This document shows positions 21,078 to 48,429 of a stretch of DNA of 64,000 nt, piece after piece; position 1 is the first letter of the stretch, and the number at the start of each line of letters is the position of its first letter. Under the pieces are notes generated by a model. The model saw only the letters and a program-made list of their open reading frames with translations, had not been told where the DNA came from and did no database searches. Both the position numbers and the translations under genes were made by a program. This stretch comes from an uncultured Bacilli bacterium (GTDB lineage Bacteria > Bacillota_I > Bacilli_A > RFN20 > CAG-449): assembly GCA_947588815.1 (NCBI GenBank), contig CANQAG010000004.1, forward strand, positions 26,193 through 90,192, in the 5' to 3' direction.

Positions 21078-21607
21078 AATTTAATGACATGACCATCAGT
21101 GAGTATTGTTTAGCTTTGAAATCAAAGACTAGCGTTCCAGGAGGTGGTTCGGCCTTGGCACTGACTTTGGAAATGGCTTGCTCTTTAGCGTTAATGACCG
21201 CTCGGTTTACAATTGATAAAAAAGGATATGAAAATTATCAAACTGAAATTAAATCGTCAATAGATAAGTTGGAAAATTTTGCGATTAAAGCTCATGAGTT
21301 AATCGATTTGGATGGTCTTGCATTTCAAGCATTGATGAAGGCATATAGTAATAAAAATCAAAATGAAATCGCTGAAAAATCGGAAGAAGCAAGCGAAATT
21401 CCGTATCTTTTATATAAATATACCAAAGATGTCGAAGATTTAGCTTCAAGATTGATGGTTATCGGAAATAAAAATGTCGCTTCGGACGCAAGTATCGCGG
21501 TCGATCTTTGCAAGGCGATTTATCCCGGTTGTATATTAAATATCAAAGCTAATATTTCCAATATTAAAAATGAGGGATTAAGAAAGAAATATTTGGATTT
21601 ATTGTAA
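21074..21607 (+). CDS. cyclodeaminase/cyclohydrolase-family protein (FtcD C-terminal-like, folate one-carbon)
   Basis: 177 aa; SVPGGGSALALTLEMACSLALMTARFT characteristic block; 4-nt overlap with upstream stop. Confidence 0.7.
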   Translation: MKFNDMTISEYCLALKSKTSVPGGGSALALTLEMACSLALMTARFTIDKKGYENYQTEIKSSIDKLENFAIKAHELIDLDGLAFQALMKAYSNKNQNEIAEKSEEASEIPYLLYKYTKDVEDLASRLMVIGNKNVASDASIAVDLCKAIYPGCILNIKANISNIKNEGLRKKYLDLL

Positions 21608-22432
21608 GTTTTTAAAAAAATTTTTTAGAAATTTGACTACTCCGTGATGATTATAATCGTGAGTTGTAATATAAGAAGTAATTTCTTTAGTCTTTTCTTT
21701 GGCATTTACCATAGCAACTCCGATTCCGGCGGCTTCAATCATATCGTTATCATTTAAATTATCTCCAAAGGCAATAGTGTGACTATGAGGAATTTGATAA
21801 TAATCTGCTAAATAAAGCATAGCTTTACCTTTACTAGAATCTAAGCTTTGAAATTGAAAGGAATATACGTCGTTAAATTTGCCCCAAAAGATCATAAAAA
21901 ATTGATCTTTGTAAAGAGGTGAATTTAACAATTCGTTAAATTGATCAATGTAATCTTCTTTTACATAAAATTCTAAGGCTAATATGTCTTCTTTAATAAT
22001 AGAATCAAGATCGCCTTCGAAAATTTGGACTTGCTTTGTATCGTGTACAATAAAAAACGGAACAAACTTGCGGTTATAAAGATAGATATGGTTTAATGAG
22101 CTTGCAAAAGCACATTTTAAATATGGTTTGGCATCATTAAAAAAACTTTTAACAAGTGCGTTTGATAATGGAAAAGTAATAGCATTTTTTATGGAGTCAT
22201 CTTTATTTAAAAATACGATTGCCGCTCCGTTATTACAAATGATGGGTTCATCATAGAGTTTTAGTTGGTGAAATTGATATAACGTTCCTTGATACGGACG
22301 ACCGGTATTAAATGAGAAATGGTGTCCTTTTTTGATTAAGCGTCGCAAAAAAATTCGTGTTTGAAACGAGATTGATTTATTTTCTTTTAATAGAGTATTG
22401 TCCATGTCAGAAGTGATTAAGTATCTATTCAT
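21599..22432 (-). CDS. Cof-type HAD-IIB family hydrolase
   Basis: ITSDMDNTLL motif I, FGDNLNDNDM motif III. Confidence 0.85.
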   Translation of the reverse strand: MNRYLITSDMDNTLLKENKSISFQTRIFLRRLIKKGHHFSFNTGRPYQGTLYQFHQLKLYDEPIICNNGAAIVFLNKDDSIKNAITFPLSNALVKSFFNDAKPYLKCAFASSLNHIYLYNRKFVPFFIVHDTKQVQIFEGDLDSIIKEDILALEFYVKEDYIDQFNELLNSPLYKDQFFMIFWGKFNDVYSFQFQSLDSSKGKAMLYLADYYQIPHSHTIAFGDNLNDNDMIEAAGIGVAMVNAKEKTKEITSYITTHDYNHHGVVKFLKNFFKNLQ

Positions 22433-22551
22433 AAGCGACTCCGTACTGCTTTTATTTTAAACTTTATTAAAAAGTTTATCAATTAGTGATTATGAAACTG
22501 TTTAATTGTTAAATAGAGTAAAAAATATTAAAATATAGATGAGGTAAATTT

Positions 22552-22893
22552 ATGAAAATTTGTGACTATTTTAATGACACGGAAATAATTAAGGATCCAA
22601 GTAATCCTTTTTCTTATTGCCTTAAAGGGGCAAACAATCATCTTATATATATTGAACCGATGTTTGAAAATCAAGTCAATTTAATTTTACTTCACCACCC
22701 GGATTGTTTAGACAAAATTGTAGCGGAAATGAAACGTATTTCACTTTTAAATGAAATTGTCATCTTTGCCGGAGATGAAGAAAATATCATCACTAAAAAA
22801 GATGGTGCTATCGAACTCACCATCTATGATCTTTTAGATAAATTACAAATTTTTGTTGAAGATAAATCACGTGGATCTGACTATGGTGATTAA
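22552..22893 (+). CDS. hypothetical protein
   Basis: 113 aa ORF with RBS; no domain recognised. Confidence 0.4.
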   Translation: MKICDYFNDTEIIKDPSNPFSYCLKGANNHLIYIEPMFENQVNLILLHHPDCLDKIVAEMKRISLLNEIVIFAGDEENIITKKDGAIELTIYDLLDKLQIFVEDKSRGSDYGD

Positions 22894-23723
22894 GCGGTAA
22901 GATGTTGAATAAGTAAAACGATAAGACCGACAATTCCTACAAGGTAGCAATAAAAGGCAAAGTAATGCAATTTGCCTTTTTTAATAATCGCAAAGATATA
23001 TTTTAAAGCAATAAAAGTGGTTAAGCCACTTATGATAATTGCGACGATATAAGCGACAATGTCATTTTGGCTGATGGAAATTGAGTCAGCTTTAAATATT
23101 TTTATAACTTCGAGAAGAAATGATCCAAAAGAAACCGGAATAAACATCAAAAAAGCGAATTTTGCCGAATCTTCATTTTTAAAGCCCCGCACTTTATTGC
23201 CGAAAATTGTGATGCCGCTACGGGAAATACCGGGCAATATACCAATTCCTTGGAAGCAGCCGATAACCAAGGCATCGACGGGCTTCATTTCTTTTAAAGT
23301 TCTTTCTTTGTTTAGCTTCTTGTTTATTAAAAGCAACGTACCTGTGATAAGAAGGAAAATAAAAACGAAAAGTAAAGACGAGAGAGTAGATTCAATAAAA
23401 TCATCAAACAATAAACCGATTATTGCCGCGGGTAAGGAAGCGATGACTAGATATAAAAACAACTTAGCATTATAAATAGTCTCTTCTTCGCGATTTTTCT
23501 TAAAGACATAAAGACATACGCCTTTTACAATATTGACAAGATCTTTAAAATAATAGGCAAGAACTGCGATCAAAGAACCAAAATGAACAAAAATTGCTAA
23601 AGTTAAATCGGTTTTCATATTCAATAAATTTTCGACTATCAAGATATGCCCTGATGACGAAATCGGTAAAATTTCACTTAGACCTTGTACTAAAGCCACG
23701 ACAATATATTTCCAAATATCCAC
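22890..23723 (-). CDS. uppP: undecaprenyl-diphosphatase
   Basis: 277 aa; LVQGLSEILPISSSGH and GISRSGITI motifs of BacA/UppP. Confidence 0.9.
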   Translation of the reverse strand: MDIWKYIVVALVQGLSEILPISSSGHILIVENLLNMKTDLTLAIFVHFGSLIAVLAYYFKDLVNIVKGVCLYVFKKNREEETIYNAKLFLYLVIASLPAAIIGLLFDDFIESTLSSLLFVFIFLLITGTLLLINKKLNKERTLKEMKPVDALVIGCFQGIGILPGISRSGITIFGNKVRGFKNEDSAKFAFLMFIPVSFGSFLLEVIKIFKADSISISQNDIVAYIVAIIISGLTTFIALKYIFAIIKKGKLHYFAFYCYLVGIVGLIVLLIQHLTA

Positions 23724-23802
23724 AACACTCCTCCTTGTTATTGATAGGAATTTATAATAAAATAAATATACTCAATTATATGTGATAAAGGAGAATTTAA
23801 CA

Positions 23803-24702
23803 ATGTCTTTCAAAGAGTTTAGCTTAATTAACAATCGCGGTGAGACACTATATGGTAATTCGTGGTTAGTGGATAAAAATACAAAAGGCAATGTAGTTAT
23901 TTCCCATGGTATGTGCGAGCATACCATGCGTTATGAACCATTAGCTAAAAAACTTAATGAAGCGGGATATAATGTTTATGGATTGGATCATATCGGGCAT
24001 AAGTTGAATTGTAGTGAAGGCTATTTGGTATGGCCGATTGATGGATTTGAAAGATGTGTCGATAACCTTTATTGCCTTTTGGATAGTTTAAAAGGGGAAC
24101 CGCTTTATTTAATTTCTCATTCGATGGGATCTTTTATTGCTCAAGCTTTAATTGAAAGAAAAGATACTTCGATTCTTTCTGGCGTAATTCTCATTGGCAC
24201 AAATGGTCCAACCCCACTTTATAAATTTGGAAAGTTTATCACGAGAACTCACGCGTTATTTGTCGACGGAAAAAAACCATCTAAATTTCTTAATAGCATC
24301 GTTTTTAGCGGATATAATAAACGCTTTAAAGACGGGAATACAAAATTAGAATGGCTTTCAGCTTCGAAAACCAATATTGAAAATTATCAAAATGACGAAT
24401 ATTGCGGGGGCATTCCTTCGACTAATTTCTTCCGTTCTTTTTTAAATAACTTAGCGAAAATTCACCGCAAAAAAGAACTTCTAAAAATTGACAAAAATAT
24501 AAAATTATTGATATTAGGCGGTGAAGATGATCCGGTTGGAAATTATGGAAAAGGAATTTTTAAATTACAAACGCTATATTCCAAATATGGTATTTCTTCA
24601 GTCGCTAAAGTGTTTCCTAAAATGAGACATGAAATATTAAATGAAGAAAATAACGAAGACGTTTATATGATAATTTTGGATTTTATTGCTGATAAAATTT
24701 AA
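23803..24702 (+). CDS. alpha/beta-hydrolase (lysophospholipase/monoacylglycerol lipase-like)
   Basis: GHSMGS nucleophile elbow; start moved to ATG 23803 with AAAGGAGA RBS (ORF-track GTG 23782 sits inside RBS). Confidence 0.75.
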   Translation: MSFKEFSLINNRGETLYGNSWLVDKNTKGNVVISHGMCEHTMRYEPLAKKLNEAGYNVYGLDHIGHKLNCSEGYLVWPIDGFERCVDNLYCLLDSLKGEPLYLISHSMGSFIAQALIERKDTSILSGVILIGTNGPTPLYKFGKFITRTHALFVDGKKPSKFLNSIVFSGYNKRFKDGNTKLEWLSASKTNIENYQNDEYCGGIPSTNFFRSFLNNLAKIHRKKELLKIDKNIKLLILGGEDDPVGNYGKGIFKLQTLYSKYGISSVAKVFPKMRHEILNEENNEDVYMIILDFIADKI

Positions 24703-24800
24703 TAAAACTTCTTTTTTGGCTGATGTTTAAAAAATAGCCATCTTGAAAAGTTTTTTTAAATATGTCACAATTATAATGATATAAGATTGGATGTGAGTTA

Positions 24801-26096
24801 ATGAAATTAACAGTTGTAGGAATGGGCTTTGTCGGCCTTGTGACCGCGGTTGGATTTGCTTCAAAGGGCAATCAAGTTTTTGCACTAGATTCTGATAAGA
24901 AAAAAATCGTTGCGCTACGTAAAAACGAAATCGAAACGATTGAACCTAAATTATATGATACTTTACTTGCTTCTGAAGCGAACATTAGGTTTACTGCGGA
25001 GACGCGAGATGCGATTTATGGCGCAGATTTAATTTTTATATGCGTTGAAACTATTGAAAAGGACAATAATCCGTGTGATACGACTGCATTATATCAAACA
25101 CTTAAAGAAATCTGTCGTTTTATTCAAAATGACGTTACGGTTGTCATTCGTTCGGCGGTTCCGGTTGGCACTTGCCAAGAAGTTCATGATTTCATGATGA
25201 CCATTACAAATAAAAAATATCGTATTGATGTTGTGAGTAATCCTGAATTCATTGCTCAAGGAACGGCGATGCGCGATATGTTAACTCCGGCGCGTGTAGT
25301 TATCGGTGTTTCTACCAAAGATTCACGCGAAAAAATGAAAGAACTTTATTCTAACTTTAAAGCACCATTACTGTTTGTTTCACCGAAAAGCGCGGAACTT
25401 ATCAAATATGCATCAAATGGATATTTAGCAGTTAAACTTTCCTACGTTAATGAACTTGCCGACTTGTGCGATGCCATTGGGGCCGATATTCAAGAAGTAA
25501 GTGTTGGTATTGGCTTAGATCCGCGTATCGGGAGTAAGTATATGTCTTCTGGTATTGGATACGGTGGACCTGCTTTGCCCCTTGATACTCAAGTTCTTTC
25601 AAATATGGCGAAGAATAACGACGTTGAACTTTCAATTCTCGATGCTGCTGTTGCAGCTAATGAAAGAAGACCGCATGCAATGATCGATAAGATGAAAAAG
25701 GAATTAGGAAGTATTGCGGGTATGCGTTTTGCGGTTCTCGGTTTGTCATATAAAGGAAATACCAATGACATTCGTCGTTCGCCGGCTTTTAGAGTTATCG
25801 AAGAATTGATTAAAGAGGATTGTCGAATTATCGCTTATGATAGTGTGGCAACGACTACCTTCCGAAAGAAAATGAAAAGTGATCAAAGAATCGCGTATGC
25901 TAATACTTTAGATGAAGCTTTAAAAACTTGCGATGCTGCCATTTTCTTAAATGATTGTGAAGAATTTAAAAATTTAACAAATGATCAAATTGTCGAATAT
26001 ATGAAAAAACCGATTGTGTTCGATGGTAAAGGAGTATTGAATCCTTATGAATTAAAGGATGTTAAATACTATGCAATCGGTAAAAAAAGGCCATAA
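24801..26096 (+). CDS. nucleotide-sugar dehydrogenase (UDP-glucose 6-dehydrogenase family)
   Basis: 431 aa; VVGMGFVGLV Rossmann N-term, catalytic Cys in GYGGPALP/SSGIGYGG region. Confidence 0.85.
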   Translation: MKLTVVGMGFVGLVTAVGFASKGNQVFALDSDKKKIVALRKNEIETIEPKLYDTLLASEANIRFTAETRDAIYGADLIFICVETIEKDNNPCDTTALYQTLKEICRFIQNDVTVVIRSAVPVGTCQEVHDFMMTITNKKYRIDVVSNPEFIAQGTAMRDMLTPARVVIGVSTKDSREKMKELYSNFKAPLLFVSPKSAELIKYASNGYLAVKLSYVNELADLCDAIGADIQEVSVGIGLDPRIGSKYMSSGIGYGGPALPLDTQVLSNMAKNNDVELSILDAAVAANERRPHAMIDKMKKELGSIAGMRFAVLGLSYKGNTNDIRRSPAFRVIEELIKEDCRIIAYDSVATTTFRKKMKSDQRIAYANTLDEALKTCDAAIFLNDCEEFKNLTNDQIVEYMKKPIVFDGKGVLNPYELKDVKYYAIGKKRP

Positions 26097-26168: not shown

Positions 26169-26273
26169 GTTATCTTTACTAATAATATTTAAGCTTTTTT
26201 ATTTTGACATGGATAGAATATTAGGATTTATTACTTATTTCTGTTTTTTTGGTTGCAAAATGAAATTTTTTTT

Positions 26274-26301
26274 TGACGAATTGATGCTCTGGTTGAATAA
26301 T
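26274..26301 (+). promoter_or_regulatory. putative promoter of island operon (-35 TTGACG, 17 nt, -10 AATAAT)
   Basis: hexamers read directly; position ~70 nt upstream of HTH gene; alternative AT-rich -10 candidates nearby. Confidence 0.3.
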
Positions 26302-26369
26302 TAAAAATTATTATGTATATTAAAAATGATTAATTATAAAGGTTGATATTGTTAAACGGAGGAAAGTCA

Positions 26370-26582
26370 ATGCTTATCTCATACAACAAATTGTGGAAAT
26401 TGATGATTGATAAAAACATTAATAAAACAAAGCTTCGCAAACAAGCAGGTATTTCATCGAACGCTATGGCAAAACTTGGAAAAAATGAATCTGTTCAAGT
26501 AGAGGTATTAGCGAAAATATGCAATTGCCTTGATTGTACGATGGATGAAATTATGGAAGTTTTTTCTAAAGATAAAGAATAA
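26370..26582 (+). CDS. small XRE/Cro-C1-type helix-turn-helix DNA-binding protein (possible controller of downstream R-M-like operon)
   Basis: 70 aa from ATG 26370 (ACGGAGGAAAG RBS); KTKLRKQAGISSNAMAKLGKNESVQVEVLAKICNCLDCTMDEI is a classical HTH_XRE pattern. Confidence 0.7.
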   Translation: MLISYNKLWKLMIDKNINKTKLRKQAGISSNAMAKLGKNESVQVEVLAKICNCLDCTMDEIMEVFSKDKE

Positions 26583-26636
26583 TCCCAAGGTTTAGCATAA
26601 GGCGTTATAGAATTGTTAGAAAATATGGGAGATCGT

Positions 26637-29600
26637 ATGGAACTAATAGATAATACATTAAAAACATTACGAGATGATATGGCAGGTGAAATAAAGAAAG
26701 GCAGTAAATTATCCATTGCGGCCGCTTGTTTTTCTATTTATGCATTTCAAGAGTTGAAAGAAAAATTACAAGATATAGATGAACTTCGTTTTATCTTTAC
26801 ATCACCTGCGTTTGTTACGGAAAAAGCAAAAAAGGAAAAACGAGAGTTTTATATTCCGAGACTTAATCGAGAACGTAGTCTCTATGGTACAGAATTTGAA
26901 GTGAAACTGAAAAATGAACTTAATCAAAAAGCGATAGCAAAAGAATGCGCTGACTGGATAAGAAAAAAGGTCACTTTTAAATCGAATGTCACCAATGAAA
27001 ATATGATGGGTTTTATCAACCTTGACGACAAAAACTATATGCCTATCAATGGATTTACTACTATTGATTTGGGATGTGAAAAAGGAAATAATGCTTATTG
27101 CATGATTCAAAAAACAGGTATGCCTTATGCAAAAGCGTACATGGATATTTTTGAAAAACTTTGGAACGATCAAAATAAACTTCAAGAAGTTACAGATGAA
27201 GTTATTAATAGTATTACAGCAGCATATAACGAAAATTCTCCCGATTTCATTTATTTTGTTACCCTTTACAATATCTTTAATGAATTTCTTGAAGATATAT
27301 CTGAGGACTTGTTGCCAAATGAAGCATCTGGTTTTAAGGATAGTAAGATTTGGAATATGCTTTACAATTTTCAAAGAGATGCAGCTCTTGCTATTATCAA
27401 TAAGTTGGAAAAGTTTAACGGCTGTATTCTTGCTGATAGTGTAGGGTTAGGTAAAACTTTTACGGCTCTCGCCGTTATCAAGTATTATGAAAATAGAAAT
27501 AAATCTGTTCTTGTCCTTTGCCCGAAAAAATTAGCCAACAACTGGAATACATATAAAGACAATTATGTAAATAATCCTATTGCGGAAGATAGGCTTCGCT
27601 ATGACGTCCTCTATCATACGGACTTAAACCGTACACAAGGAACTTCTAATGGCCTTGATTTAAGTAGGCTGAATTGGGGAAATTATGATCTAGTTGTAAT
27701 AGACGAATCTCATAATTTTCGTAACGGAGGAAAAGTAATAGAAAATCCTGATGATGACGATAAGGAAAATAGATATGTAAAACTTTTAAAAAAAGTTATC
27801 CGTGCCGGTGTGAAAACAAAGGTTCTTATGTTATCTGCAACACCGGTTAATAATAAATTTCTTGATTTGAAAAATCAACTTGCACTTGCCTATGAAGGCG
27901 ATACTAATTTAATTGACGAAAAATTGAATACTTCTCGAACCATTGATGAGATATTTAAAAACGCTCAAAGAGCTTTTACTACTTGGAGCAAATGGAAACC
28001 GGAAGAAAGAACTACCGAAAATTTGCTTCGGATGTTAGACTTTGATTTCTTTGAAGTTCTTGATAGCGTGACGATTGCTCGCTCCCGCAAGCACATTCAA
28101 AAATATTATGACACTACAGACATTGGTAAATTTCCTACAAGATTAAAACCAATTTCTCTTCGCCCACAACTTACTGATTTGAAATCGGCCATCAACTATA
28201 ATGAGATATTTGAACAGTTAATGCTTCTAACTCTTACAATTTATACGCCATCTCATTTTATCTTACCTAGTAGGATGGAAAAATATGCTGAAATTTTCAA
28301 AGATAACCGAGTAAATATTGGGTTTACACAAGCAAATCGTGAACAAGGTATTCAACGTTTAACAGCGATTAATTTAATGAAGCGCATGGAAAGTTCGGTA
28401 TATTCGTTTAAACTTACGCTTAATAGAATAAAAGATTTAATTAGCAGCACACTTCAATCAATAGATAATTATGACCATTCACAATCATTAACTTTTGAAT
28501 TAACCGATATTTCAAACATCGATGAATTTGATGATGAGGATCAAAATAACGATGAAATCTTTTCTATTGGAAAAAAGATTAAGATTGACATTGGTGATAT
28601 GGATTATAAATCGTGGCGCGATAGTCTTGCAAAAGACGCTGAAATTTTAGAACTTCTTTCATTAATGATTGAGGATATTACGCCTAAACATGACGCTAAA
28701 CTTCAAGAACTTTTTAGGGTGATTAAAGATAAATTTGCACAGCCTATAAACGATAACAATAAAAAAATTATTATTTTTACGGCTTTTACGGATACTGCAA
28801 AGTATTTATACGATAATGTGAGTGAATATGTTCTTTCTAATTATGGATTAAATACGGCGATGATTACCGGATCGATCGAGGGTCGTACTACGGTTCCTAA
28901 GTTGCGTTGTGATTTAAATACAGTGTTGACGTGTTTTTCCCCGATTTCAAAGAACAAACAACTTCTTATGCCAAATGACAATACCGAAATAGATATTCTG
29001 ATTGCAACGGATTGTATCTCTGAAGGACAAAATTTACAAGACTGCGACTATCTTATTAATTACGATATTCACTGGAATCCGGTACGAATTATTCAAAGAT
29101 TTGGCCGTATTGATCGTATTGGGAGTCACAATCAATATATTCAACTTGTAAATTTTTGGCCGGATGTTTCACTTGATGATTATATCAATTTAAAAGCAAG
29201 AGTTGAAACTCGTATGAAAATCGTTAATTTGACAGCAACAGGTGATGACAACATTCTTAGTGATGAAGAAAAAACAGATTTGGAATATCGTAAAGCCCAG
29301 CTTAAGCGTTTGCAAGACGAAGTTGTGGACATCGAGGATATGACAAGTGGAATATCAATAATGGATTTGGGATTAAATGAGTTTCGGTTGGATCTTTTAG
29401 AATATATGAAATATAACGATAATCTTGATAAGACTCCATTTGGGCTTCACGCCGTTGTGCCGGCAAATGATGAAATGCCGGCGGGAGTTATTTATGTCTT
29501 GAAGAATCGATCAAACAATGTAAATATCAATAATCAAAATCGGTTACATCCGTTTTATATGGTGTATATCTCTAATGAAGGTAAAGTGATATGCGATCAT

Positions 29601-29885
29601 CTTTCACCTAAAACAATGCTAGATAAGATGCGCTATCTATGCAAAGGTAAAAATGAACCTTATAAGGATCTTTGTAATAAGTTTAATCAAGAGACAAAAG
29701 ACGGGAAGGATATGCATAAATTTTCAATTCTACTCGGTAATGCAATATCCTCTATTATAGAGATAAAAGAAGAAAGCGATATCGATTCGTTCCTTAGTGG
29801 TGGACATGTTAGTTTTATCGACGCTACTATCAAAGGTTTGGATGACTTTGAACTTATTTGCTTTTTGGTTGTGAAGGAAAGATAA
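26637..29885 (+). CDS. SNF2-family (SF2) ATPase/helicase with ~270-aa N-terminal non-helicase domain
   Basis: Walker A ADSVGLGKTFTA, motif II VVIDESHNFRN, helicase-C block ILIATDCISEGQNLQDCDYLINYDIHWNPVRIIQRFGRIDRIGS; start placed at ATG 26637 (GGGAG 5 nt upstream; TTG 26613/ATG 26625 possible). Confidence 0.85.
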   Translation: MELIDNTLKTLRDDMAGEIKKGSKLSIAAACFSIYAFQELKEKLQDIDELRFIFTSPAFVTEKAKKEKREFYIPRLNRERSLYGTEFEVKLKNELNQKAIAKECADWIRKKVTFKSNVTNENMMGFINLDDKNYMPINGFTTIDLGCEKGNNAYCMIQKTGMPYAKAYMDIFEKLWNDQNKLQEVTDEVINSITAAYNENSPDFIYFVTLYNIFNEFLEDISEDLLPNEASGFKDSKIWNMLYNFQRDAALAIINKLEKFNGCILADSVGLGKTFTALAVIKYYENRNKSVLVLCPKKLANNWNTYKDNYVNNPIAEDRLRYDVLYHTDLNRTQGTSNGLDLSRLNWGNYDLVVIDESHNFRNGGKVIENPDDDDKENRYVKLLKKVIRAGVKTKVLMLSATPVNNKFLDLKNQLALAYEGDTNLIDEKLNTSRTIDEIFKNAQRAFTTWSKWKPEERTTENLLRMLDFDFFEVLDSVTIARSRKHIQKYYDTTDIGKFPTRLKPISLRPQLTDLKSAINYNEIFEQLMLLTLTIYTPSHFILPSRMEKYAEIFKDNRVNIGFTQANREQGIQRLTAINLMKRMESSVYSFKLTLNRIKDLISSTLQSIDNYDHSQSLTFELTDISNIDEFDDEDQNNDEIFSIGKKIKIDIGDMDYKSWRDSLAKDAEILELLSLMIEDITPKHDAKLQELFRVIKDKFAQPINDNNKKIIIFTAFTDTAKYLYDNVSEYVLSNYGLNTAMITGSIEGRTTVPKLRCDLNTVLTCFSPISKNKQLLMPNDNTEIDILIATDCISEGQNLQDCDYLINYDIHWNPVRIIQRFGRIDRIGSHNQYIQLVNFWPDVSLDDYINLKARVETRMKIVNLTATGDDNILSDEEKTDLEYRKAQLKRLQDEVVDIEDMTSGISIMDLGLNEFRLDLLEYMKYNDNLDKTPFGLHAVVPANDEMPAGVIYVLKNRSNNVNINNQNRLHPFYMVYISNEGKVICDHLSPKTMLDKMRYLCKGKNEPYKDLCNKFNQETKDGKDMHKFSILLGNAISSIIEIKEESDIDSFLSGGHVSFIDATIKGLDDFELICFLVVKER

Positions 29886-29888: not shown

Positions 29889-30494
29889 ATGCTGGGATTA
29901 CCAAAAGCGACGGAAGTAAATAAACAGCTTCCAAAAAGTGCGATTTATTCAAAGTTCAAAATGAATATGACAGCCAAAGACCGAATTGATCGAGATATTT
30001 CACGAATTTACATCACTAATGAAGTAACTGCATCAAAAATCAACTTGAAAGATGGAGCGGAAATAAAATCCTTTTTCGTAATGTCAGTACTACTTAAACG
30101 TAAAGACTTTAATGAAAAAAATATGATTGCCCTTTCTAAGTTGATAATGCAAAATATAGTGTTAGTTCTTGAATATAAAAGTGAAGGCAAAATAATGGTG
30201 TGTCGAAATGGGAAACTTTTACAGACCGAATGGCAACCAAAGGAAAAACTTTTGCTTGAAATCAAAGGTTTGAACCTTGATATGGTATGGGATAATATCA
30301 TCATTCAAATAGGTGGATTGACTATTACATCTGGCAATACCATAGATGAACAAATAGATATTGAAGAGCAAAAAAACAAACTTCAAAAAGAGATTGATAA
30401 ACTTGAAAAACTCGCACGAGTTGAAAAACAACCTAGAAAGAAGTTTGAGATGCACCGACAAATTTTGAAATTAAAGCAGGAGGAATCGGAATGA
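29889..30494 (+). CDS. DUF4391-like small protein (helicase-associated), translationally coupled to SNF2 gene
   Basis: 201 aa; starts 3 nt after SNF2 stop with AAGGAAAG RBS; size/charge pattern and coiled-coil C-term resemble DUF4391 partners of SNF2 helicases (assignment from memory, unverified). Confidence 0.5.
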   Translation: MLGLPKATEVNKQLPKSAIYSKFKMNMTAKDRIDRDISRIYITNEVTASKINLKDGAEIKSFFVMSVLLKRKDFNEKNMIALSKLIMQNIVLVLEYKSEGKIMVCRNGKLLQTEWQPKEKLLLEIKGLNLDMVWDNIIIQIGGLTITSGNTIDEQIDIEEQKNKLQKEIDKLEKLARVEKQPRKKFEMHRQILKLKQEESE

Positions 30495-30925
30495 ATGAAA
30501 AATTTTATGAACTCTGTTATAAAATCTTGCATCGGTATTTAAATCTTCCCGATGTGGCAGATACATTTCGAAGCATACTAAAAGGAATAGATTACATAAA
30601 AAAATTTCCATGGGATATAAATGATTTTTTATGTAAAAAAAATGAAATTATCTCTTATATTCAAGATGTGCGCTGTAAAAATATAATTGATGGATATAAC
30701 GAAAATCCATATTTATTAACTCCTACACCATTTAGCAAAAAGCTTTCTGACACAAATCAAAATGAATTATATTCGAATCTAATCGGAGAAATTCCAAGAC
30801 TTATTCTTAAAGGAATGCATCAAGTTATTAAAAATTTATATAACATTAAAGATGATAATGAACTTACAGAAGAATTAGTACAAGAAAACATTACTGTTTT
30901 AATGAAATACAAACTAGTAAAATAG
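30491..30925 (+). CDS. hypothetical protein (144 aa), translationally coupled (ATGA overlap)
   Basis: AGGAGG 7 nt upstream; no recognisable domain. Confidence 0.5.
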   Translation: MNEKFYELCYKILHRYLNLPDVADTFRSILKGIDYIKKFPWDINDFLCKKNEIISYIQDVRCKNIIDGYNENPYLLTPTPFSKKLSDTNQNELYSNLIGEIPRLILKGMHQVIKNLYNIKDDNELTEELVQENITVLMKYKLVK

Positions 30926-30939: not shown

Positions 30940-32832
30940 ATGAATAAACTTAAAATGCAAACTATAAACAAAGCAGATGAGAATTTCAAGAGATTGACGG
31001 AAATGTTTCCGAATGCTATTACAGAAACGATAGATGAAAACGGCGAAGTTGTTCGTGCTATTGACAAAGATGTTCTTATGCAAGAAATCTCTTGCAAAGT
31101 AGTTGAAGGGCGCGAAGAACGTTATCAATTTACTTGGCCGGACAAGAGAAAATCTGTTCTGCTTGCAAATGCGCCTATTAACAAAACACTCCGTCCTTGT
31201 CGTGAAGAAAGCGTGAATTTTGACAACACCGAAAACCTTTATATTGAGGGTGATAATCTTGAAGTGTTAAAGCTTTTGCAGGAAACTTATCTAGGCAAAA
31301 TTAAAATGATATATATTGATCCACCTTATAATACGGGTAATGACTTTGTGTATGAGGATAATTTTACTCAAAGCACTGATGAATATCTTGCAAATAGCGG
31401 ACAATATGACGATCAAGGCAATCGGTTATATCAAAATACAGAAAGTAATGGTAGATTTCATACTGATTGGCTGAACATGATATATCCAAGGTTGAAACTA
31501 GCAAAAGATTTGCTCCGAGAAGACGGTATGGTCTTTATTAGCATTGACGATAACGAACAAGAAAACCTAAAGAAAATTTGTGATGAAATATTTGGAAGTG
31601 CTAATTTTGTTGCTAATTTTATATGGAAAAAAACAAGCAACCCAAATTCAACAGGAAACAATATTGGTGTTGAACACGAATACATTATTTCATATTCGAA
31701 AAGTAATAAGTATATTTTAAATTCTTTACCATTGGATAAAGAAGATTTTGATAAATATATAGGTAAAGATGAATTCTTAGAAGAAAGAGGACCATATAAA
31801 CTTGTTGGTTTAAATAAGACGGGAACTGTAAATGATTTAAGAGCTAATTTAATGTATGATATTGAAGCACCAGATGGTAGTATAATTAAACCAAATCCAA
31901 GATGGAGATGGTCATTAGAAAAATTTAACAAATGCAAAACAGAAAATAGAATAGTATTTATTAAATATAATGAAAAATGGAGCGTCTCGTATAAACAATA
32001 TTTAAATGAAGATACTGAAGGCAATATTGTAGCTCGAGGAAAGTTAATTAAAACAATTTTTAGTGATAATGGTAGAACAACTGATGGTACATTGGAAATA
32101 AATAGTTTATTAGGAAAGGGTTATTTTGATTTTCCAAAACCAAAAGATTTAATAAAAAAACTACTTTTCATATCTTCGAAAAAAAATGATATTATCCTCG
32201 ATTTCTTTTCCGGCTCTGCTACAACCGCTCATGCTGTTATGCAACTCAATGCCGAAGATGGAGGCAACCGAAAGTTTATTATGGTACAGCTTCCCGAAGT
32301 ATGCGATGAAAAAAGTGAAGCCTATAAAGCAGGTTATAAGAATATTTGCGAAATCGGAAAAGAACGTATCCGTCGAGCAGGTAAAAAAATCAAGGATGAA
32401 AATCCACTTACAACGCAAGATCTTGATATTGGATTCCGTGTTTTGAAGTGTGATACATCAAATATGAAAGATGTTTACTATAATCCCAAAGATATCGAAA
32501 TTTCATTGTTTGAAAACGATGATAACAATATCAAAGAAGATCGCACACCGGAAGATTTGTTGTTCCAAGTAATGCTCGATTTAGGAGTGTTGCTTTCTTC
32601 TAAAATTGAAGAAAAAGAAATTGCCGGAAAGAAAGTATTTAATGTTGCTGATGGTTTCCTCATTGCTTGCTTTGATGAAAATGTAACAGAAGAAACGATA
32701 AAAGAAGTTGCTAAGCAAAAACCATATTATTTTGTCATGCGAGATAGTTCTATGGCAAACGACAGCGTAGCTACCAACTTTGAGCAAATTTTTGCTACAT
32801 ATAGTCCGGATACGGTAAGGAAGGTGCTGTAA
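30940..32832 (+). CDS. mod: Type III restriction-modification Mod subunit, N6-adenine DNA methyltransferase
   Basis: 630 aa; IYIDPPYNTGNDF (DPPY motif IV), FxGSGTT-like AdoMet motif FFSGSATTAHAV; GGGAGG RBS. Confidence 0.9.
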   Translation: MNKLKMQTINKADENFKRLTEMFPNAITETIDENGEVVRAIDKDVLMQEISCKVVEGREERYQFTWPDKRKSVLLANAPINKTLRPCREESVNFDNTENLYIEGDNLEVLKLLQETYLGKIKMIYIDPPYNTGNDFVYEDNFTQSTDEYLANSGQYDDQGNRLYQNTESNGRFHTDWLNMIYPRLKLAKDLLREDGMVFISIDDNEQENLKKICDEIFGSANFVANFIWKKTSNPNSTGNNIGVEHEYIISYSKSNKYILNSLPLDKEDFDKYIGKDEFLEERGPYKLVGLNKTGTVNDLRANLMYDIEAPDGSIIKPNPRWRWSLEKFNKCKTENRIVFIKYNEKWSVSYKQYLNEDTEGNIVARGKLIKTIFSDNGRTTDGTLEINSLLGKGYFDFPKPKDLIKKLLFISSKKNDIILDFFSGSATTAHAVMQLNAEDGGNRKFIMVQLPEVCDEKSEAYKAGYKNICEIGKERIRRAGKKIKDENPLTTQDLDIGFRVLKCDTSNMKDVYYNPKDIEISLFENDDNNIKEDRTPEDLLFQVMLDLGVLLSSKIEEKEIAGKKVFNVADGFLIACFDENVTEETIKEVAKQKPYYFVMRDSSMANDSVATNFEQIFATYSPDTVRKVL

Positions 32833-33854
32833 TGGAAAATAAGATACAAAGTGAGATTCTTATTTATCAAACTGAAAAAGGAAATACAAAACTTGATGTA
32901 CGTCTAGAAGATGAAACTGTTTGGCTAACGCAGGCACAACTAGTAGAACTTTATCAAACTACAAAATCGAATGTAAGTGAACATATTAAGCATATCTTTG
33001 AAGATGGTGAATTGGATGAAACATTAGTTGTTCGGAATTTCCGAACAACTGCTTCTGACGGAAAAAAATATAACACAAAATATTATAACTTAGACATGAT
33101 AATTTCACTAGGATATCGTATTCGTAGTATAACGGCAACGCATTTTAGAAAATGGGCGACAGAACGTTTAAAAGAATATATTATCAAAGGTTTCACAATG
33201 GATGATGAGCGTTTAAAAGGGAATGGCGGCGGACAATATTGGAAAGAGCTGCTTGCAAGAATTCGTGATATTCGCTCATCTGAAAAAGTACTTTATCGTC
33301 AAGTACTTGATCTTTACGCTACAAGCGTTGATTACGATCCAAATAGTGAAATATCGATTGAATTTTTCAAAATTGTGCAGAACAAATTACATTATGCAGC
33401 TCATGGTCATACTGCTGCGGAAGTGATCTATGAACGAGCTGACGCTAATAAGCCATTTATGGGGATGAAAAGTTTTAAAGGAGATTTTCCGACTCTTGCC
33501 GATGCGAAGATTGCTAAAAATTATCTTAATGAGGATGAACTAAAAGTGTTAGGTAATCTTGTTTCGGGATATTTTGATTTTGCAGAAATTCAAGCAATCC
33601 GAAAGCACCCGATGTATATGAAAGATTACATAGAGAATCTTGATTCTATTCTTTCCGCGACTGGCGAAAAACTTTTACTTAATGCTGGAAAAATCAGTCA
33701 CCAAGAAGCTATAGATAAAGCAATAGCGGAATATAGAAAATATCAAGTGCAAACCCTTTCTCCTGTCGAAGAAGTGTATCTAGAAATGGTAAAAAATACA
33801 GAAAAGACAATTAAAAAACTTACGAAAAATAGTGAAAAAGGAGAGCAAAAGTGA
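32832..33854 (+). CDS. RhuM-family (virulence protein RhuM/Fic-DOC-like) protein embedded between mod and res
   Basis: 340 aa; N-terminal EILIYQTEKGNTKLDVRLEDETVWLTQAQLVELYQTTKSNVSEHIKHIF typical of RhuM family; start overlaps mod stop (TAATG). Confidence 0.8.
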   Translation: MENKIQSEILIYQTEKGNTKLDVRLEDETVWLTQAQLVELYQTTKSNVSEHIKHIFEDGELDETLVVRNFRTTASDGKKYNTKYYNLDMIISLGYRIRSITATHFRKWATERLKEYIIKGFTMDDERLKGNGGGQYWKELLARIRDIRSSEKVLYRQVLDLYATSVDYDPNSEISIEFFKIVQNKLHYAAHGHTAAEVIYERADANKPFMGMKSFKGDFPTLADAKIAKNYLNEDELKVLGNLVSGYFDFAEIQAIRKHPMYMKDYIENLDSILSATGEKLLLNAGKISHQEAIDKAIAEYRKYQVQTLSPVEEVYLEMVKNTEKTIKKLTKNSEKGEQK

Positions 33855-36800
33855 AATTCAATTTTAAAATACAACAGTATCAAACTGACGCTGTGAATGC
33901 AGTTGTTAAAGTTTTTGCCGGTCAGGGTTTTAGGGAAAAAATAAACTATATTCGCGATACTGGAAAACAGATTGCTAATGATCATCAGCAAACACAACTT
34001 ATTTTCGATAATAATGAAAAATACGATTGGTATGATCCGTTAAACGATACTGGCTATAAAAATGCACCTTTGGAACTTTCCGATGAAGAACTTTTAAGTA
34101 ATATTAAAAACCTGCAAATCGAAAATAATATTAAACAATCGGTTTCACTGAATAAAGAATTGGGGCAATGTTCTCTTGATATAGAGATGGAAACCGGTAC
34201 TGGCAAAACATATGTGTATATTAAGACGATGTTTGAACTAAACAAGCTGTACGGATGGAGCAAGTTTATTGTCGTTGTACCCTCCATCGCTATCCGTGAA
34301 GGAGTGAAAAAGTCCTTTGAAATCACGATAGATCATTTTATGGAATATTATGGTAAAAAAGCTCGTTTTTTCGTTTACAATAGTAGTAACTTATCACAGC
34401 TAGATAACTTTTCTCAAAGTTCCGGTATCAATGTGATGATTATTAACACGCAAGCTTTTGCTTCCTCTTTAAAGGAAGACGGAAAAAGTAAAGAAGCCCG
34501 TATTATTTATTCTAAACGAGATGAATTTGGTTCCCGTCGTCCAATTGATGTAATCAAAGCAAATAGACCTATTATCATTTTGGATGAACCGCAAAAAATG
34601 GGTGGTGATGTCACACAAAAGGCACTTAAAAACTTTAATCCACTTTTTTCTCTTAATTACTCTGCTACTCACGCTAAACAACATAATCTCATATATGTGC
34701 TTGACGCTCTCGACGCTTTCAACGAGCGCCTCGTGAAGAAAATTGAAGTAAAAGGTTTTGAAGTTAAAAATTTTCGAGGAACGGATGGCTACCTCTATTT
34801 AGAGAAAATTGTCCTTTCTTCAAAAAATCCGCCGATGGCAAAAATCGAACTTGAAATCGGATATAATAAGTCCATAAAACGTGAGACGAGACTATTAGGT
34901 GTCGGGGATGATCTATATTATGTCTCGCAAAAGATGGAACAATACAAAGGGTTTACGATTTCCGAAGTAGATCAGTTGCGTGGAACTGTTACATTTACTA
35001 ATGGTAATGTCATAGCTGTTGGGGAAATAGTAAACGATGTGTCTGAGAAAGATATGCGTCGTATTCAAATAAGAGAAACGATACTTTCTCATTTCGAAAA
35101 AGAAGAAAAGCTTTTTAATATGGGAATTAAATCTTTGTCGTTATTTTTTATAGATGAAGTAGCTAAATATCGCCAATATGATGAAGATGGTAACGAGATA
35201 TTAGGCGAATATGGAAAAATATTTGAACAAGAATATATTAATGTTCTCAATGAGTACATCACCATATTTGATACACCTTATCAAAAATATCTCCGCTCTA
35301 CTTGTAGCGATGTTTCATCTGTACATAAAGGTTATTTCAGTATTGATAAAAAGACCGGCAGAAGTATTGATAGTCAATTAAAAAGAGGCAGTGAGTTTTC
35401 AGATGATATTTCTGCTTATGATTTGATACTCAAAAACAAAGAACGTTTGCTGTCATTTGACGAACCTACAAGGTTTATCTTTTCTCACTCAGCGCTCCGT
35501 GAAGGTTGGGATAATCCCAATGTGTTCCAAATTTGCACTTTGAAACATTCTGATAGTAATACCACAAAGCGTCAGGAAGTTGGTAGAGGACTGAGACTTT
35601 GTGTCAATCAATTCGGCAACCGAATGGATGTTGAAACTCTTGGAGACAATGTTCACGACGTGAACCTCCTTACCGTAATTGCTAGTGAAAGTTATAAGAC
35701 CTTTGTGTCTGATTTACAAAGTGACATCAAGGCGGTTCTTTATGATAGACCGACAGTAGCAACGAGTGAATATTTTGCTGGGAAATGTGTAAAAGTTGGT
35801 GATTGTTTCACTACTATTGACGATAAAATTGCTAATAAACTTGAATATTATCTCATACAAAACAAGTATGTTAATATAGAACGCAAGGTGACAGATAAAT
35901 ATCGCGAAGATGTGGCAAACGGAACATTAGTACCACTTCCAGATGATCTTGCTCCAATGGCAGAGGGTATTCATAAGCTTATTCAATCCGTCTATGACGA
36001 CAGTATGTTGGAAAGTATGTTTACTGATGGTCACGAGTCTAAAATTATGGACAATCCGCTGAATGAAAATTTTGCTAAAAAAGAATTTCAGGCACTTTGG
36101 AATGAAATCAATCGTAAGTATGCCTATACAGTTAGCTTTGATAGTGAGGAACTGATAAAAAAAGCGATCGACTACATCGATCAGAAACTATTTGTTTCTG
36201 AATTACAATACACAACGACTATCGGAAGGCAGAAAGACAAGATGAACGAAAATGAAATTGAAAACCTAACTTCGTTCAGCAACGAAAAAACGAGAACCCA
36301 AACGTTGAAACATACTGAAGCAAGCAACGTAAAATATGATCTTATTGGAAAAGTAGCGGAAGGTACTATTCTTACAAGAAAAACTGTAGCAAGGATATTG
36401 AAAGGAATTAGGAAAGATAAGCTTAAGATGTTTAGCTATAATCCTGAAGAATTTATATCAAAAATAATAAAACTCATTAAAGAGCAGAAAGCTACAATGA
36501 TTGTTGAACACATTTCCTACAATCAAATTGATGGAAAGTATGATAGCACGATTTTTACTGCTGAAAAAACTACAGTTAGATTTGATAAGGCATATCTTGC
36601 CAAAAAAGCGATTCAAGATTATGTATTTATAGATGGAACGGCAGAAAATAGTATTGAAAGAAGATTCGCTAAAAGTTTAGATGAAGCTGATGAAGTTTGT
36701 GTCTATGCTAAGCTACCGAGAACTTTCCAAATACCGACACCAGTGGGTAACTATTCCCCTGATTGGGCGATAGCTTTTTATGAAGGTAAAGTAAAACATA

Positions 36801-36973
36801 TTTTCTTTATTGCTGAAACGAAAGGTACAATGGAAAGCTTGAATCTGCGACCAATTGAACAGGCTAAGATTTCATGTGCAAAAAAGTTGTTTAACGAAAT
36901 GTCTACAAGCAAGGTAAAGTATCATGAAGTTGATAGTTATACAAAATTGCTTAATGTAATAGAGATGCTTTAA
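33851..36973 (+). CDS. res: Type III restriction enzyme Res subunit (SF2 helicase + C-terminal PD-(D/E)xK nuclease)
   Basis: 1040 aa; Walker A ETGTGKTYV, DEPQ (motif II ILDEPQK), C-terminal PDWAIAF...IAETKG nuclease block; GTG start at 33851 with AAGGAGAG RBS overlapping RhuM stop (GTGA). Confidence 0.9.
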   Translation: MKFNFKIQQYQTDAVNAVVKVFAGQGFREKINYIRDTGKQIANDHQQTQLIFDNNEKYDWYDPLNDTGYKNAPLELSDEELLSNIKNLQIENNIKQSVSLNKELGQCSLDIEMETGTGKTYVYIKTMFELNKLYGWSKFIVVVPSIAIREGVKKSFEITIDHFMEYYGKKARFFVYNSSNLSQLDNFSQSSGINVMIINTQAFASSLKEDGKSKEARIIYSKRDEFGSRRPIDVIKANRPIIILDEPQKMGGDVTQKALKNFNPLFSLNYSATHAKQHNLIYVLDALDAFNERLVKKIEVKGFEVKNFRGTDGYLYLEKIVLSSKNPPMAKIELEIGYNKSIKRETRLLGVGDDLYYVSQKMEQYKGFTISEVDQLRGTVTFTNGNVIAVGEIVNDVSEKDMRRIQIRETILSHFEKEEKLFNMGIKSLSLFFIDEVAKYRQYDEDGNEILGEYGKIFEQEYINVLNEYITIFDTPYQKYLRSTCSDVSSVHKGYFSIDKKTGRSIDSQLKRGSEFSDDISAYDLILKNKERLLSFDEPTRFIFSHSALREGWDNPNVFQICTLKHSDSNTTKRQEVGRGLRLCVNQFGNRMDVETLGDNVHDVNLLTVIASESYKTFVSDLQSDIKAVLYDRPTVATSEYFAGKCVKVGDCFTTIDDKIANKLEYYLIQNKYVNIERKVTDKYREDVANGTLVPLPDDLAPMAEGIHKLIQSVYDDSMLESMFTDGHESKIMDNPLNENFAKKEFQALWNEINRKYAYTVSFDSEELIKKAIDYIDQKLFVSELQYTTTIGRQKDKMNENEIENLTSFSNEKTRTQTLKHTEASNVKYDLIGKVAEGTILTRKTVARILKGIRKDKLKMFSYNPEEFISKIIKLIKEQKATMIVEHISYNQIDGKYDSTIFTAEKTTVRFDKAYLAKKAIQDYVFIDGTAENSIERRFAKSLDEADEVCVYAKLPRTFQIPTPVGNYSPDWAIAFYEGKVKHIFFIAETKGTMESLNLRPIEQAKISCAKKLFNEMSTSKVKYHEVDSYTKLLNVIEML

Positions 36974-37878: not shown

Positions 37879-37911
37879 TAAATAATACTTTTAACATTAA
37901 GGAGATAAAAC

Positions 37912-38211: not shown

Positions 38212-38215
38212 TAAA

Positions 38216-38818: not shown

Positions 38819-38819
38819 A

Positions 38820-39410: not shown

Positions 39411-39421
39411 TTTGAATATAA

Positions 39422-39456
39422 AAAACAGCAAGAAAATTTTCTTGCTGTTTTTTTTA
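39422..39456. terminator. rho-independent terminator (bidirectional)
   Basis: perfect palindrome aaaacagcaagaaaa/ttttcttgctgtttt then T8. Confidence 0.7.
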
Positions 39457-39492
39457 AATTTTAATACCTTAAAGAAAATGTTTAATTTTTAA

Positions 39493-48428: not shown

Positions 48429-48429
48429 A

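What the first reader, a model, noticed from the sequence alone, without database searches (positions are those of the whole stretch)
26637..29885. SNF2-family ATPase with a ~270-aa N-terminal domain of unknown function heading the R-M operon
Helicase motifs I (GLGKT), II (DESH) and the helicase-C block are intact, which predicts an active translocase. The first ~270 residues (SIAAACFSIYAF...TIDLGCEKGNN...) precede motif I and match nothing I can name. There is no HxK PLD motif, and a possible D...EK pair is too weakly spaced to call PD-(D/E)xK. Type III Res already supplies a translocase. A second ATPase in the same operon therefore suggests a distinct role, such as sensor, anti-anti-restriction, or a DISARM/BREX-like exclusion step.
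Basis: partly seen in the sequence, partly recalled or inferred. Interest (0 to 1): 0.6.

Follow-up and report, generated by a model that had tools for sequence, protein, structure and literature searches.

The report
SNF2 motor in four-gene restriction system
The gene encodes an intact SNF2-type DNA motor whose N-terminal domain is a catalytically dead copy of a phospholipase-D nuclease, and it is one of four genes (with DUF4391, a methylase and a cutting enzyme) inherited together in hundreds of bacterial species as an uncharacterised, expanded relative of Type III restriction-modification.

Summary
An intact 1082-aa SNF2 ATPase lies at 26637-29885 (+). Motifs I, II, III and VI are present, and there is no histidine at all in its first 326 residues.

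The gene is not a loose neighbour of the R-M genes. In 58 genome loci with at least 8 kb downstream, DUF4391 follows in 57, Mod in 58 and Res in 57, always in the same order, across five phyla. The cassette also sits on 117 plasmids and in a few phage records.

Res belongs to a clade distinct from EcoP1/EcoP15-type Res. In a Bacillus cereus plasmid the cassette is fused to DISARM drmA-drmB. Gaps inside the cassette carry variable defence genes.

My best reading is that SNF2 and DUF4391 form the motor/adaptor module of a four-component Type III-derived R-M system. This role is inferred, not shown.

I found no paper describing the cassette. I rate it a new variant of a known kind, of moderate interest.

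The parts
26273..26321 (+). Two overlapping sigma-70-like promoter matches upstream of the HTH gene. The evidence is weak: these are consensus matches only.
   Evidence: The region as a whole has fewer promoter-like matches than its shuffles.
26300..26338 (.). A 19-bp tandem repeat (2.1 copies) between the promoter-like site and the HTH gene. It is a possible operator for the HTH regulator.
   Evidence: The function is inferred.
26370..26582 (+). A 70-aa Cro/C1-type HTH (HTH_26). It is a likely controller-type regulator.
   Evidence: E 2.7e-18. Homologues lie upstream of SNF2 in 9 of 77 loci. HTH, 'transcription factor' or WYL genes are annotated upstream on plasmids.
26637..29885 (+). SNF2-family ATPase, 1082 aa. 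This is the finding.
26637..27236 (+). Pseudo-PLD domain (aa 1-200). It has the phospholipase-D fold without the HKD catalytic motif. It includes a conserved insert, aa 62-93, that was modelled with low confidence.
27444..27458 (+). Helicase motif I, GLGKT (Walker A).
   Evidence: Invariant in 69 homologues.
27702..27713 (+). Helicase motif II, DESH (Walker B).
28746..29123 (+). Helicase_C lobe (aa 704-829), including motif VI QRFGRIDR.
29409..29882 (+). Conserved C-terminal domain (about aa 925-1082). Its fold is unknown and it has no nuclease-like motif.
   Evidence: Conservation 0.63-0.73 per 40-aa block, with the near-invariant residues listed. No Pfam hit. Not modelled.
29889..30494 (+). 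DUF4391 protein (201 aa), the obligate partner of the SNF2 gene. It has an alpha/beta domain plus a C-terminal helical hairpin.
   Evidence: Pfam 94 bits. Present in 57 of 58 loci. AF2 pLDDT 86.4. No significant structural match.
30491..30925 (+). orf144, a variable cargo gene in the DUF4391|Mod slot. It belongs to no known family.
   Evidence: Searches gave no hit. A homologue occurs only in L074.
30940..32832 (+). Mod, a Type III-like N6-adenine methyltransferase. DPPY is at aa 127 and FSGSATT at aa 423.
   Evidence: PF01555 at 127.7 bits; PADLOC MTase_III at 771 bits.
32832..33854 (+). RhuM-family gene, variable cargo in the Mod|Res slot.
   Evidence: PF13310 at 354 bits; PADLOC PDC-S05. 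Present in 9 of 58 loci.
33851..36973 (+). Res, an SF2 helicase-like domain (GTGKT aa 116, DEPQ aa 245) plus a C-terminal PD...ExK endonuclease (PDWAI aa 970, ETKG aa 989).
   Evidence: ResIII and RE_endonuc. PADLOC REase_III at 962 bits. Motif positions. Distinct clade.

Best explanation
The ORF encodes a functional-looking SNF2-family dsDNA-dependent ATPase. Its N-terminal ~200 residues are a phospholipase-D-fold domain that has lost the HKD catalytic residues, making it a pseudo-nuclease.

It is the first structural gene of a conserved, horizontally mobile four-gene cassette: SNF2, DUF4391, Mod, Res. This cassette is an expanded relative of Type III restriction-modification.

Proposed working (inferred):
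- Mod marks host DNA by adenine methylation.
- Res cuts unmarked DNA with its PD...ExK domain.
- SNF2, tethered through DUF4391, supplies ATP-driven translocation or remodelling on dsDNA. This links site recognition to cleavage, or clears the DNA for it.
- The dead PLD domain no longer cuts. It serves as a dimerisation, DNA-binding or partner-binding scaffold left over from an ancestral PLD-SNF2 restriction subunit.

What is shown: the domain identities, the intact motifs, the loss of HKD, and the obligate four-gene linkage.

What is inferred: physical association of the four proteins, the motor role, and the scaffold role.
For: Identity and family:
- Pfam SNF2-rel_dom and Helicase_C pass their cut-offs.
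- The PADLOC model 'HKD+Snf2' matches full length at E 1.7e-123.
- 278 of 1082 positions are at least 97% conserved in 69 homologues at 43-88% identity, including all ATPase motifs.

PLD fold without catalysis:
- There is no conserved H or K in the family alignment, and no His before residue 327.
- The hhalign register against Nuc-type PLD replaces H, K, S and N with M, G, G and T.

Linkage:
- Of 58 loci with at least 8 kb downstream, 57 have DUF4391, 58 Mod and 57 Res, in the same order, across Bacillota, Bacteroidota, Spirochaetota, Synergistota and Fibrobacterota.
- The bare contiguous four-gene form occurs in L014, L067 and L077.
- The same order holds on E. coli, Listeria, L. brevis, Vibrio and B. 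cereus plasmids and in an Erysipelothrix phage record.
- In the window the start and stop codons touch or overlap, and no + strand terminator-like site lies inside the cassette.
- Identities to the window co-vary between SNF2 and Res (r = 0.79).
- The N-terminal domain occurs only on this helicase in plasmids: 117 records in both the domain search and the full-length search.

Analogies from papers:
- In ARMADA II, which is an SNF2, a methylase and a helicase-nuclease, deleting the SNF2 gene armA abolishes defence (10.1101/2025.09.22.677730).
- In CglI, a PLD-nuclease subunit depends on a separate helicase-like subunit that translocates dsDNA (PMC5861437 abstract).
- A Lactococcus plasmid encodes a PLD+SNF2 protein next to a methylase, proposed there as the restriction subunit (PMC6098607).
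Against: - No experiment or complex prediction links the four proteins physically.
- DUF4391 gave no informative structural match, so its adaptor role is a guess.
- Res carries its own intact ATPase motifs, and canonical Type III enzymes work without any SNF2. The SNF2 could therefore act in methylation control, sensing or counter-defence instead.
- The C-terminal ~160 aa of SNF2 were not modelled.
- The N-terminal model is only moderately confident (pLDDT 74.7), and aa 62-93 are unmodelled although conserved.
- Sequence-level support for the PLD relationship is weak (hhalign E 0.028).
Confidence: 0.55

Rival explanations
1. SNF2 and DUF4391 control modification or self/non-self discrimination rather than cleavage. 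For example, they may be needed for Mod to methylate, or they may license Res only on unmethylated DNA, as accessory proteins do in BREX- or DISARM-like systems.
For: The best partial HMM hits among named systems are DrmD models. A B. cereus plasmid has drmA-drmB fused to this cassette. SNF2 and DUF4391 always lie upstream of Mod.
Against: Nothing here distinguishes a role in methylation from a role in restriction. Mod has all its catalytic motifs and resembles self-sufficient Type III Mod.
Confidence: 0.2
2. SNF2 acts as a counter-counter-defence. It strips phage DNA-binding proteins or DNA mimics that block Res/Mod, or it senses their presence.
For: SNF2 enzymes in general remove proteins from DNA (general knowledge). 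DUF4391 is the fastest-evolving component, with median identity 43% against 70% for SNF2, as expected for a protein that contacts phage factors.
Against: SNF2 itself is the most conserved component, and there is no evidence of any phage ligand. Obligate linkage in 57 of 58 loci suggests a core role rather than an optional one.
Confidence: 0.13
3. SNF2-DUF4391 is an independent two-gene defence module that merely shares a defence island with a Type III R-M system.
For: Unrelated defence genes do sit inside the cassette. PADLOC's model for the family came from a survey of genes found next to type III CRISPR-cas cassettes (PMC6546367).
Against: The order is fixed and co-occurrence is 57 of 58 across five phyla. 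The Res clade is dedicated: even Res relatives at 33-35% identity keep SNF2 and DUF4391. The four genes are contiguous in minimal loci. No locus was seen with SNF2-DUF4391 alone.
Confidence: 0.08
4. It is a housekeeping RapA-like transcription factor or an ordinary SNF2_N extension.
For: One database record annotates a homologue as rapA (H141).
Against: The RapA equivalog scores 47.4 bits against a cut-off of 576. The N-terminus has a PLD fold. The gene has a patchy, plasmid-borne, cross-phylum distribution at 64-88% identity.
Confidence: 0.02

Closest known systems
Canonical Type III restriction-modification (EcoP1I, EcoP15I, StyLTI)
   Same: Both have a Mod N6-adenine methylase and a Res with an SF2 ATPase plus a C-terminal PD...ExK nuclease, with mod placed before res.
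   Different: Two further obligate genes are present, SNF2 and DUF4391. Res is a separate clade: the NCBIfam equivalog scores 398 bits against a cut-off of 564, and EcoP-type Res on plasmids aligns only over aa 70-591 at about 35% identity.
Class 1 DISARM (DrmD SNF2, DrmMI methylase, DrmA/DrmB, DrmC PLD) and ARMADA (ArmA SNF2, ArmB methylase, ArmC helicase-nuclease)
   Same: The logic is the same: an SNF2 ATPase, an adenine methylase and a second helicase-nuclease. PLD-type and SNF2 parts occur in both. The cassette is fused to drmA-drmB in B. cereus pJ39_1.
   Different: The DrmD equivalogs score 155 against 610 and 91 against 950. No DrmA or DUF1998 is found in the window or in 80 loci. The second helicase here is a Type III Res. 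The PLD part is fused to SNF2 and is inactive. DUF4391 is not a listed DISARM or ARMADA component.
SauUSI (Type IV ATP-dependent restriction enzyme, PDB 7CLG)
   Different: SauUSI is a stand-alone nuclease that cuts modified DNA (PMC3141236 abstract). Here the HKD motif is absent, the ATPase is SNF2-type, and the protein is tied to Mod/Res.
PLD-SNF2 fusion proteins next to methylases (Lactococcus plasmid orf33/orf34; PADLOC 'PLD_Helicase'; NCBIfam 'phospholipase D-like domain-containing anti-phage protein')
   Same: Both have an N-terminal PLD-type domain fused to an SNF2/helicase core and are linked to a methylase (PMC6098607).
   Different: Those proteins carry a Pfam-detectable PLD domain that was proposed to be the nuclease. 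Their models match only the helicase C-terminal part of this protein. This family has lost the catalytic residues and relies on Res for cutting.
FAM83 DUF1669 pseudo-PLD domains; CglI/NgoAVII PLD nucleases with a separate helicase subunit
   Different: The FAM83 proteins are human. That FAM83 is non-catalytic is from my own knowledge and was not tested here. CglI and NgoAVII keep an active PLD and have no Type III Mod/Res.

Membership tests
SNF2 family (SF2 ATPases) | SNF2-related N-lobe and Helicase_C lobe score above the Pfam gathering cut-offs. | tested here: met
   47.8 bits against 24.9, and 58.6 bits against 23.5.
SNF2 family (SF2 ATPases) | Intact motifs I (GxGKT), II (DExH), III and VI. 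| tested here: met
   GLGKT at 270, DESH at 356, SATP at 400, QRFGRIDR at 820. All are at least 97% conserved in 69 homologues.
Phospholipase D / HKD superfamily | PLD fold. | tested here: met
Phospholipase D / HKD superfamily | Catalytic HxK(x)4D(x)6GSxN motif. | tested here: not met
   No His lies in aa 1-326 and no HxK in the whole protein. No conserved H or K in 24 family members down to 37% identity. The aligned positions are M123, G125, G139 and T141.
DISARM DrmD | NCBIfam equivalog score at or above the cut-off. | tested here: not met
   NF038317 scores 154.9 against 610. NF038318 scores 91 against 950.
DISARM DrmD | DrmA and DrmB (DUF1998) present in the same locus. | tested here: not met
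   tblastn found no hit in the window or in 80 loci. They are present only in the B. cereus relative.
Type III restriction-modification (the cassette) | Mod is an N6-adenine methylase of the Type III kind. | tested here: met
   PF01555 at 127.7 bits; PADLOC MTase_III at 771 bits full length; DPPY lies before FxGxG.
Type III restriction-modification (the cassette) | Res has an SF2 ATPase and a C-terminal PD...ExK nuclease. | tested here: met
   ResIII and RE_endonuc; PADLOC REase_III at 962 bits; the motifs are present.
Type III restriction-modification (the cassette) | Res reaches the curated 'type III R-M endonuclease' equivalog cut-off. | tested here: not met
   398 bits against 564. It forms a separate clade on plasmids.
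Type III restriction-modification (the cassette) | Two-gene composition (mod and res only). | tested here: not met
   Four genes are conserved together in 57 of 58 loci.
RapA (housekeeping SNF2) | NCBIfam equivalog score at or above the cut-off. | tested here: not met
   47.4 bits against 576, and the match is local only.
Zorya ZorD / BREX BrxHII | Model score and partner genes (ZorA/B; PglZ, BrxC). | tested here: not met
   ZorD scores 32 bits against 1500. BrxHI|BrxHII scores 97.7 bits, local only. None of the operon genes matches those partners.
SauUSI-like Type IV enzymes | Active PLD nuclease and a modified-base-reading C-terminal domain. | tested here: not met
   The HKD motif is absent. 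The C-terminal domain was not modelled, so that part is untested.

The most novel reading that the evidence does not exclude
The SNF2(pseudo-PLD)-DUF4391-Mod-Res cassette is an unnamed, widespread class of ATP-dependent restriction-modification system. Two different SF2 ATPases cooperate in it, and SNF2 and DUF4391 are essential, which would make it mechanistically distinct from canonical Type III enzymes. It would form a bridge between Type III R-M and DISARM/ARMADA. Its internal gaps would also serve as landing sites for other defence genes.
Probability: 0.4. Interest if true: 0.7.

Novelty: new variant of a known kind. Interest (0 to 1): 0.52.

Why it matters
[quoted passage not shown] This includes loci on Listeria, Enterococcus, Bacillus, Acinetobacter and E. 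coli plasmids and in many gut anaerobes. Their host-range barriers and methylomes would then depend on two genes that current tools ignore.

It would also give a tractable case of a dead nuclease domain kept under strong selection inside a defence motor. It would provide an evolutionary link between Type III R-M and DISARM-like systems, whose SNF2 subunits are still not understood mechanistically.

Tried and rejected
- Active PLD nuclease: rejected, because the catalytic residues are absent family-wide.
- PD-(D/E)xK in SNF2: the conserved C-terminal residues (D1070, E1072, K992 and others) do not form a D...ExK pattern. I did not pursue this further.
- RapA, DrmD, ZorD, BrxHII, DpdE and HmaA membership: all fall far below their cut-offs or match the helicase core only.
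- PDB sequence search with the N-terminal profile: no hit at E = 10.
- Exact-contig look-up of the window's SNF2 protein: not on record.
I rebuilt it from a protein search.
- Phase-variation repeats or flanking island repeats: none convincing.
- Literature: ten searches found no paper on this cassette. The only two papers mentioning DUF4391 are irrelevant, and one appears to be a typo for DUF7941. Many subscription-journal papers are outside the library, so absence is not proof.
Full report
**1. The observation**

An ORF runs 26613..29885 on the + strand. The ATG at 26637 is preceded by GGAG and gives a 1082-aa product. A protein of identical length and 100% identity is in NCBI (P0001).

- SIAAACFSIYAF at aa 26-37 and TIDLGCEKGNN at aa 142-152.
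- Motif I GLGKT at aa 270-274 and motif II DESH at aa 356-359.
- Motif III SATP at aa 400-403 and motif VI QRFGRIDR at aa 820-827.

Pfam SNF2-rel_dom and Helicase_C pass their gathering scores. The protein contains no HxK anywhere, and its first histidine is residue 327.

One detail needs correcting. A 70-aa Cro/C1-type HTH gene (26370-26582) lies just upstream. A 19-bp tandem repeat (26300-26338) and promoter-like matches lie in front of that gene.

**2. The N-terminal domain**

Sequence methods see nothing in this region. No Pfam or NCBIfam family covers aa 1-240. A profile of 24 family members finds no PDB sequence even at E = 10.

The domain is nevertheless a large family. A search of 1.84 billion cluster representatives found 2074 relatives at E <= 0.001.

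An alignment down to 37% identity has 13 invariant positions: N6, F32, L40, F52, F59, E88, C104, W107, G146, F172, W176, Y206 and F214. None is a histidine or lysine.

To place the catalytic residues, I fetched five real Nuc-type PLD proteins from plasmids and compared the profiles. The match is weak (hhalign E 0.028), but it falls in the register the structure predicts. It puts Nuc H85, K87, S100 and N102 opposite M123, G125, G139 and T141. Across the family these columns hold M/I/L/T/S/A and G/S/N/Q/P/E, never H or K.

More distant members also lack the motif: B. cereus at 45% identity and a Deinococcus fragment at 22%. The domain is therefore a PLD fold without PLD chemistry.

PADLOC already holds a full-length model for the family, 'C3a139, HKD+Snf2' (E 1.7e-123). 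It was taken from a survey of genes found next to type III CRISPR-cas cassettes (PMC6546367).

**3. The rest of the protein**

In 69 full-length homologues at 43-88% identity, 278 of 1082 positions are at least 97% conserved. These include every ATPase motif and about 40 positions in the pseudo-PLD domain. Some of those positions fall in the poorly modelled insert aa 62-93: R69, E79, G84, E88 and N93.

A conserved C-terminal domain (about aa 925-1082) has no family match and no nuclease-like motif. I could not model it.

**4. Genomic context**

In the window the genes run HTH, SNF2, DUF4391 (29889-30494), orf144, Mod (30940-32832), RhuM, Res (33851-36973). Gaps are 3 to 14 nt or the genes overlap, and no + strand terminator-like site lies inside.

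Mod has DPPY and FSGSATT. Res has GTGKT, DEPQ and a PD...ETK nuclease motif. Both match PADLOC Type III models over their full length.

Among the 58 loci with at least 8 kb downstream, DUF4391 follows in 57, Mod in 58 and Res in 57, always in this order. These loci span Bacillota, Bacteroidota, Spirochaetota, Synergistota and Fibrobacterota. The one exception has a truncated SNF2 gene.

L014, L067 and L077 carry the four genes back to back.

Median identity to the window is 70% for SNF2, 59% for Res, 55% for Mod and 43% for DUF4391. The SNF2 and Res identities co-vary (r = 0.79).

The cassette is also on 117 plasmids, including Listeria, Enterococcus, Bacillus, E. coli and Acinetobacter. It occurs in 10 of 5426 complete E. 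coli genomes and in five phage records, among them Erysipelothrix phi1605.

The N-terminal domain occurs on exactly the same 117 plasmids as the full-length protein.

Res belongs to its own clade. [quoted passage not shown] EcoP-type 'type III restriction-modification system endonuclease' genes align only over aa 70-591 at about 35% identity. Even Res relatives at 33-35% identity sit in the same four-gene order.

**5. Link to DISARM**

The best partial hits among named systems are DrmD models, but they lie far below their cut-offs: 155 bits against 610, and 91 against 950. No DrmA or DUF1998 occurs in the window or in 80 loci.

In B. cereus pJ39_1, however, drmA, a DUF1998 gene, SNF2, DUF4391, Mod and Res are contiguous and overlapping. 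The protein is not DrmD, but the module can be combined with DISARM parts.

**6. DUF4391**

A model with pLDDT 86.4 shows an alpha/beta domain (aa 12-142) and a helical hairpin (152-178 and 182-200). The family-wide invariant residues E179 and Q181 sit at the hairpin turn.

**7. Mechanism**

Shown:
- The ATPase is intact and strongly constrained.
- The nuclease domain is dead but conserved.
- The four genes are obligately linked.
- Mod and Res have intact catalytic motifs.

Inferred: SNF2 with DUF4391 is the motor/adaptor module of a four-component R-M machine. Cutting is done by Res and marking by Mod. The pseudo-PLD domain acts as a dimerisation or binding scaffold.

Single-HKD PLD nucleases work as dimers; this is general knowledge, not tested here. 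A retained dimer face would pair two motors.

Support by analogy comes from three papers:
- In ARMADA II, loss of the SNF2 gene armA abolishes defence (10.1101/2025.09.22.677730).
- In CglI, a helicase-like subunit translocates dsDNA to activate a PLD nuclease (PMC5861437).
- A Lactococcus plasmid encodes a PLD+SNF2 protein beside a methylase, which the authors proposed as the restriction subunit (PMC6098607). This suggests an ancestor in which the PLD domain still cut.

For EcoP15I, ATP is described as triggering long-range diffusion (PMC4490356). A processive SNF2 motor would therefore add something rather than duplicate Res.

The rivals I could not exclude are a role in methylation control, a role in removing phage proteins, and (least likely) an independent module.

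**8. Novelty**

Ten literature searches and several full-text checks found no description of this cassette, and nothing on DUF4391 function. Public records name its genes generically.

The parts are known kinds, and the overall logic resembles DISARM and ARMADA. I therefore class it as a new variant of a known kind. It is widespread and experimentally tractable. My confidence in the motor role is moderate only.

Noticed in passing
window 30491-30925 and 32832-33854; loci L001-L080: The gaps DUF4391|Mod and Mod|Res are variable cargo slots of 0 to 3.3 kb. In the window they hold orf144 (no known family; a homologue only in L074) and a RhuM gene. In other loci they hold unrelated defence-type genes: AAA_21/AbiEii, Schlafen AlbA_2, ThsA_Macro, GmrSD_N, AbiJ, AbiH, KAP NTPase and YhcG PDDEXK.
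   Followed up: partly
L086 (B. cereus pJ39_1, NZ_AP022953.1 223811-237544): drmA, a DUF1998 gene (drmB-like), SNF2, DUF4391, Mod and Res are contiguous and overlapping. This is a DISARM/Type III hybrid of six genes.
   Followed up: partly
window 26300-26338: A 19-bp tandem repeat (2.1 copies, 85% match) lies between promoter-like sites and the HTH gene. It may be an operator for a controller-type regulator.
   Followed up: no
window 26820-26915 (SNF2 aa 62-93): This segment is strongly conserved (KREFYIP..RE.SLYG.EFE..L.N; R69, E79, G84, E88 and N93 are near-invariant) yet was modelled with pLDDT below 50. It is an insert relative to plain PLD domains and may be an interaction motif.
   Followed up: no
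window 29889-30494 (DUF4391 aa 179-182): The residues E179 and Q181, invariant across the whole family (P182 invariant among the closer relatives), lie at the turn of the C-terminal helical hairpin. This placement suggests a probe-like tip.
   Followed up: no
window 8132-11884 (- strand): A 1250-aa protein carries DUF4011 and a weak REase_MTES_1575 match (30.9 bits against a cut-off of 38.2). It is a second defence-like helicase-nuclease candidate about 15 kb upstream.
   Followed up: no
proteins P0037, P0058, P0061, P0076: Some close SNF2 homologues (82% identity, 1208-1210 aa) carry an extra N-terminal PF10686 domain ahead of the pseudo-PLD domain.
   Followed up: no
L093 (Erysipelothrix phage phi1605, 75033-83913); MW265923.1: The cassette is carried in a 90-kb phage record next to mef(A)/msr(D). 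There the DUF4391 gene is annotated 'methyl-accepting chemotaxis protein'. A Latilactobacillus sakei homologue is annotated 'rapA'. Both are likely misannotations.
   Followed up: no
window 20172-26096 and 37318-52079: The cassette sits among ordinary chromosomal genes of a low-GC anaerobe: UDP-glucose dehydrogenase, BacA, flavodoxins and an Fe-only hydrogenase. No integrase or transposase is adjacent and no flanking repeats were found.
   Followed up: partly
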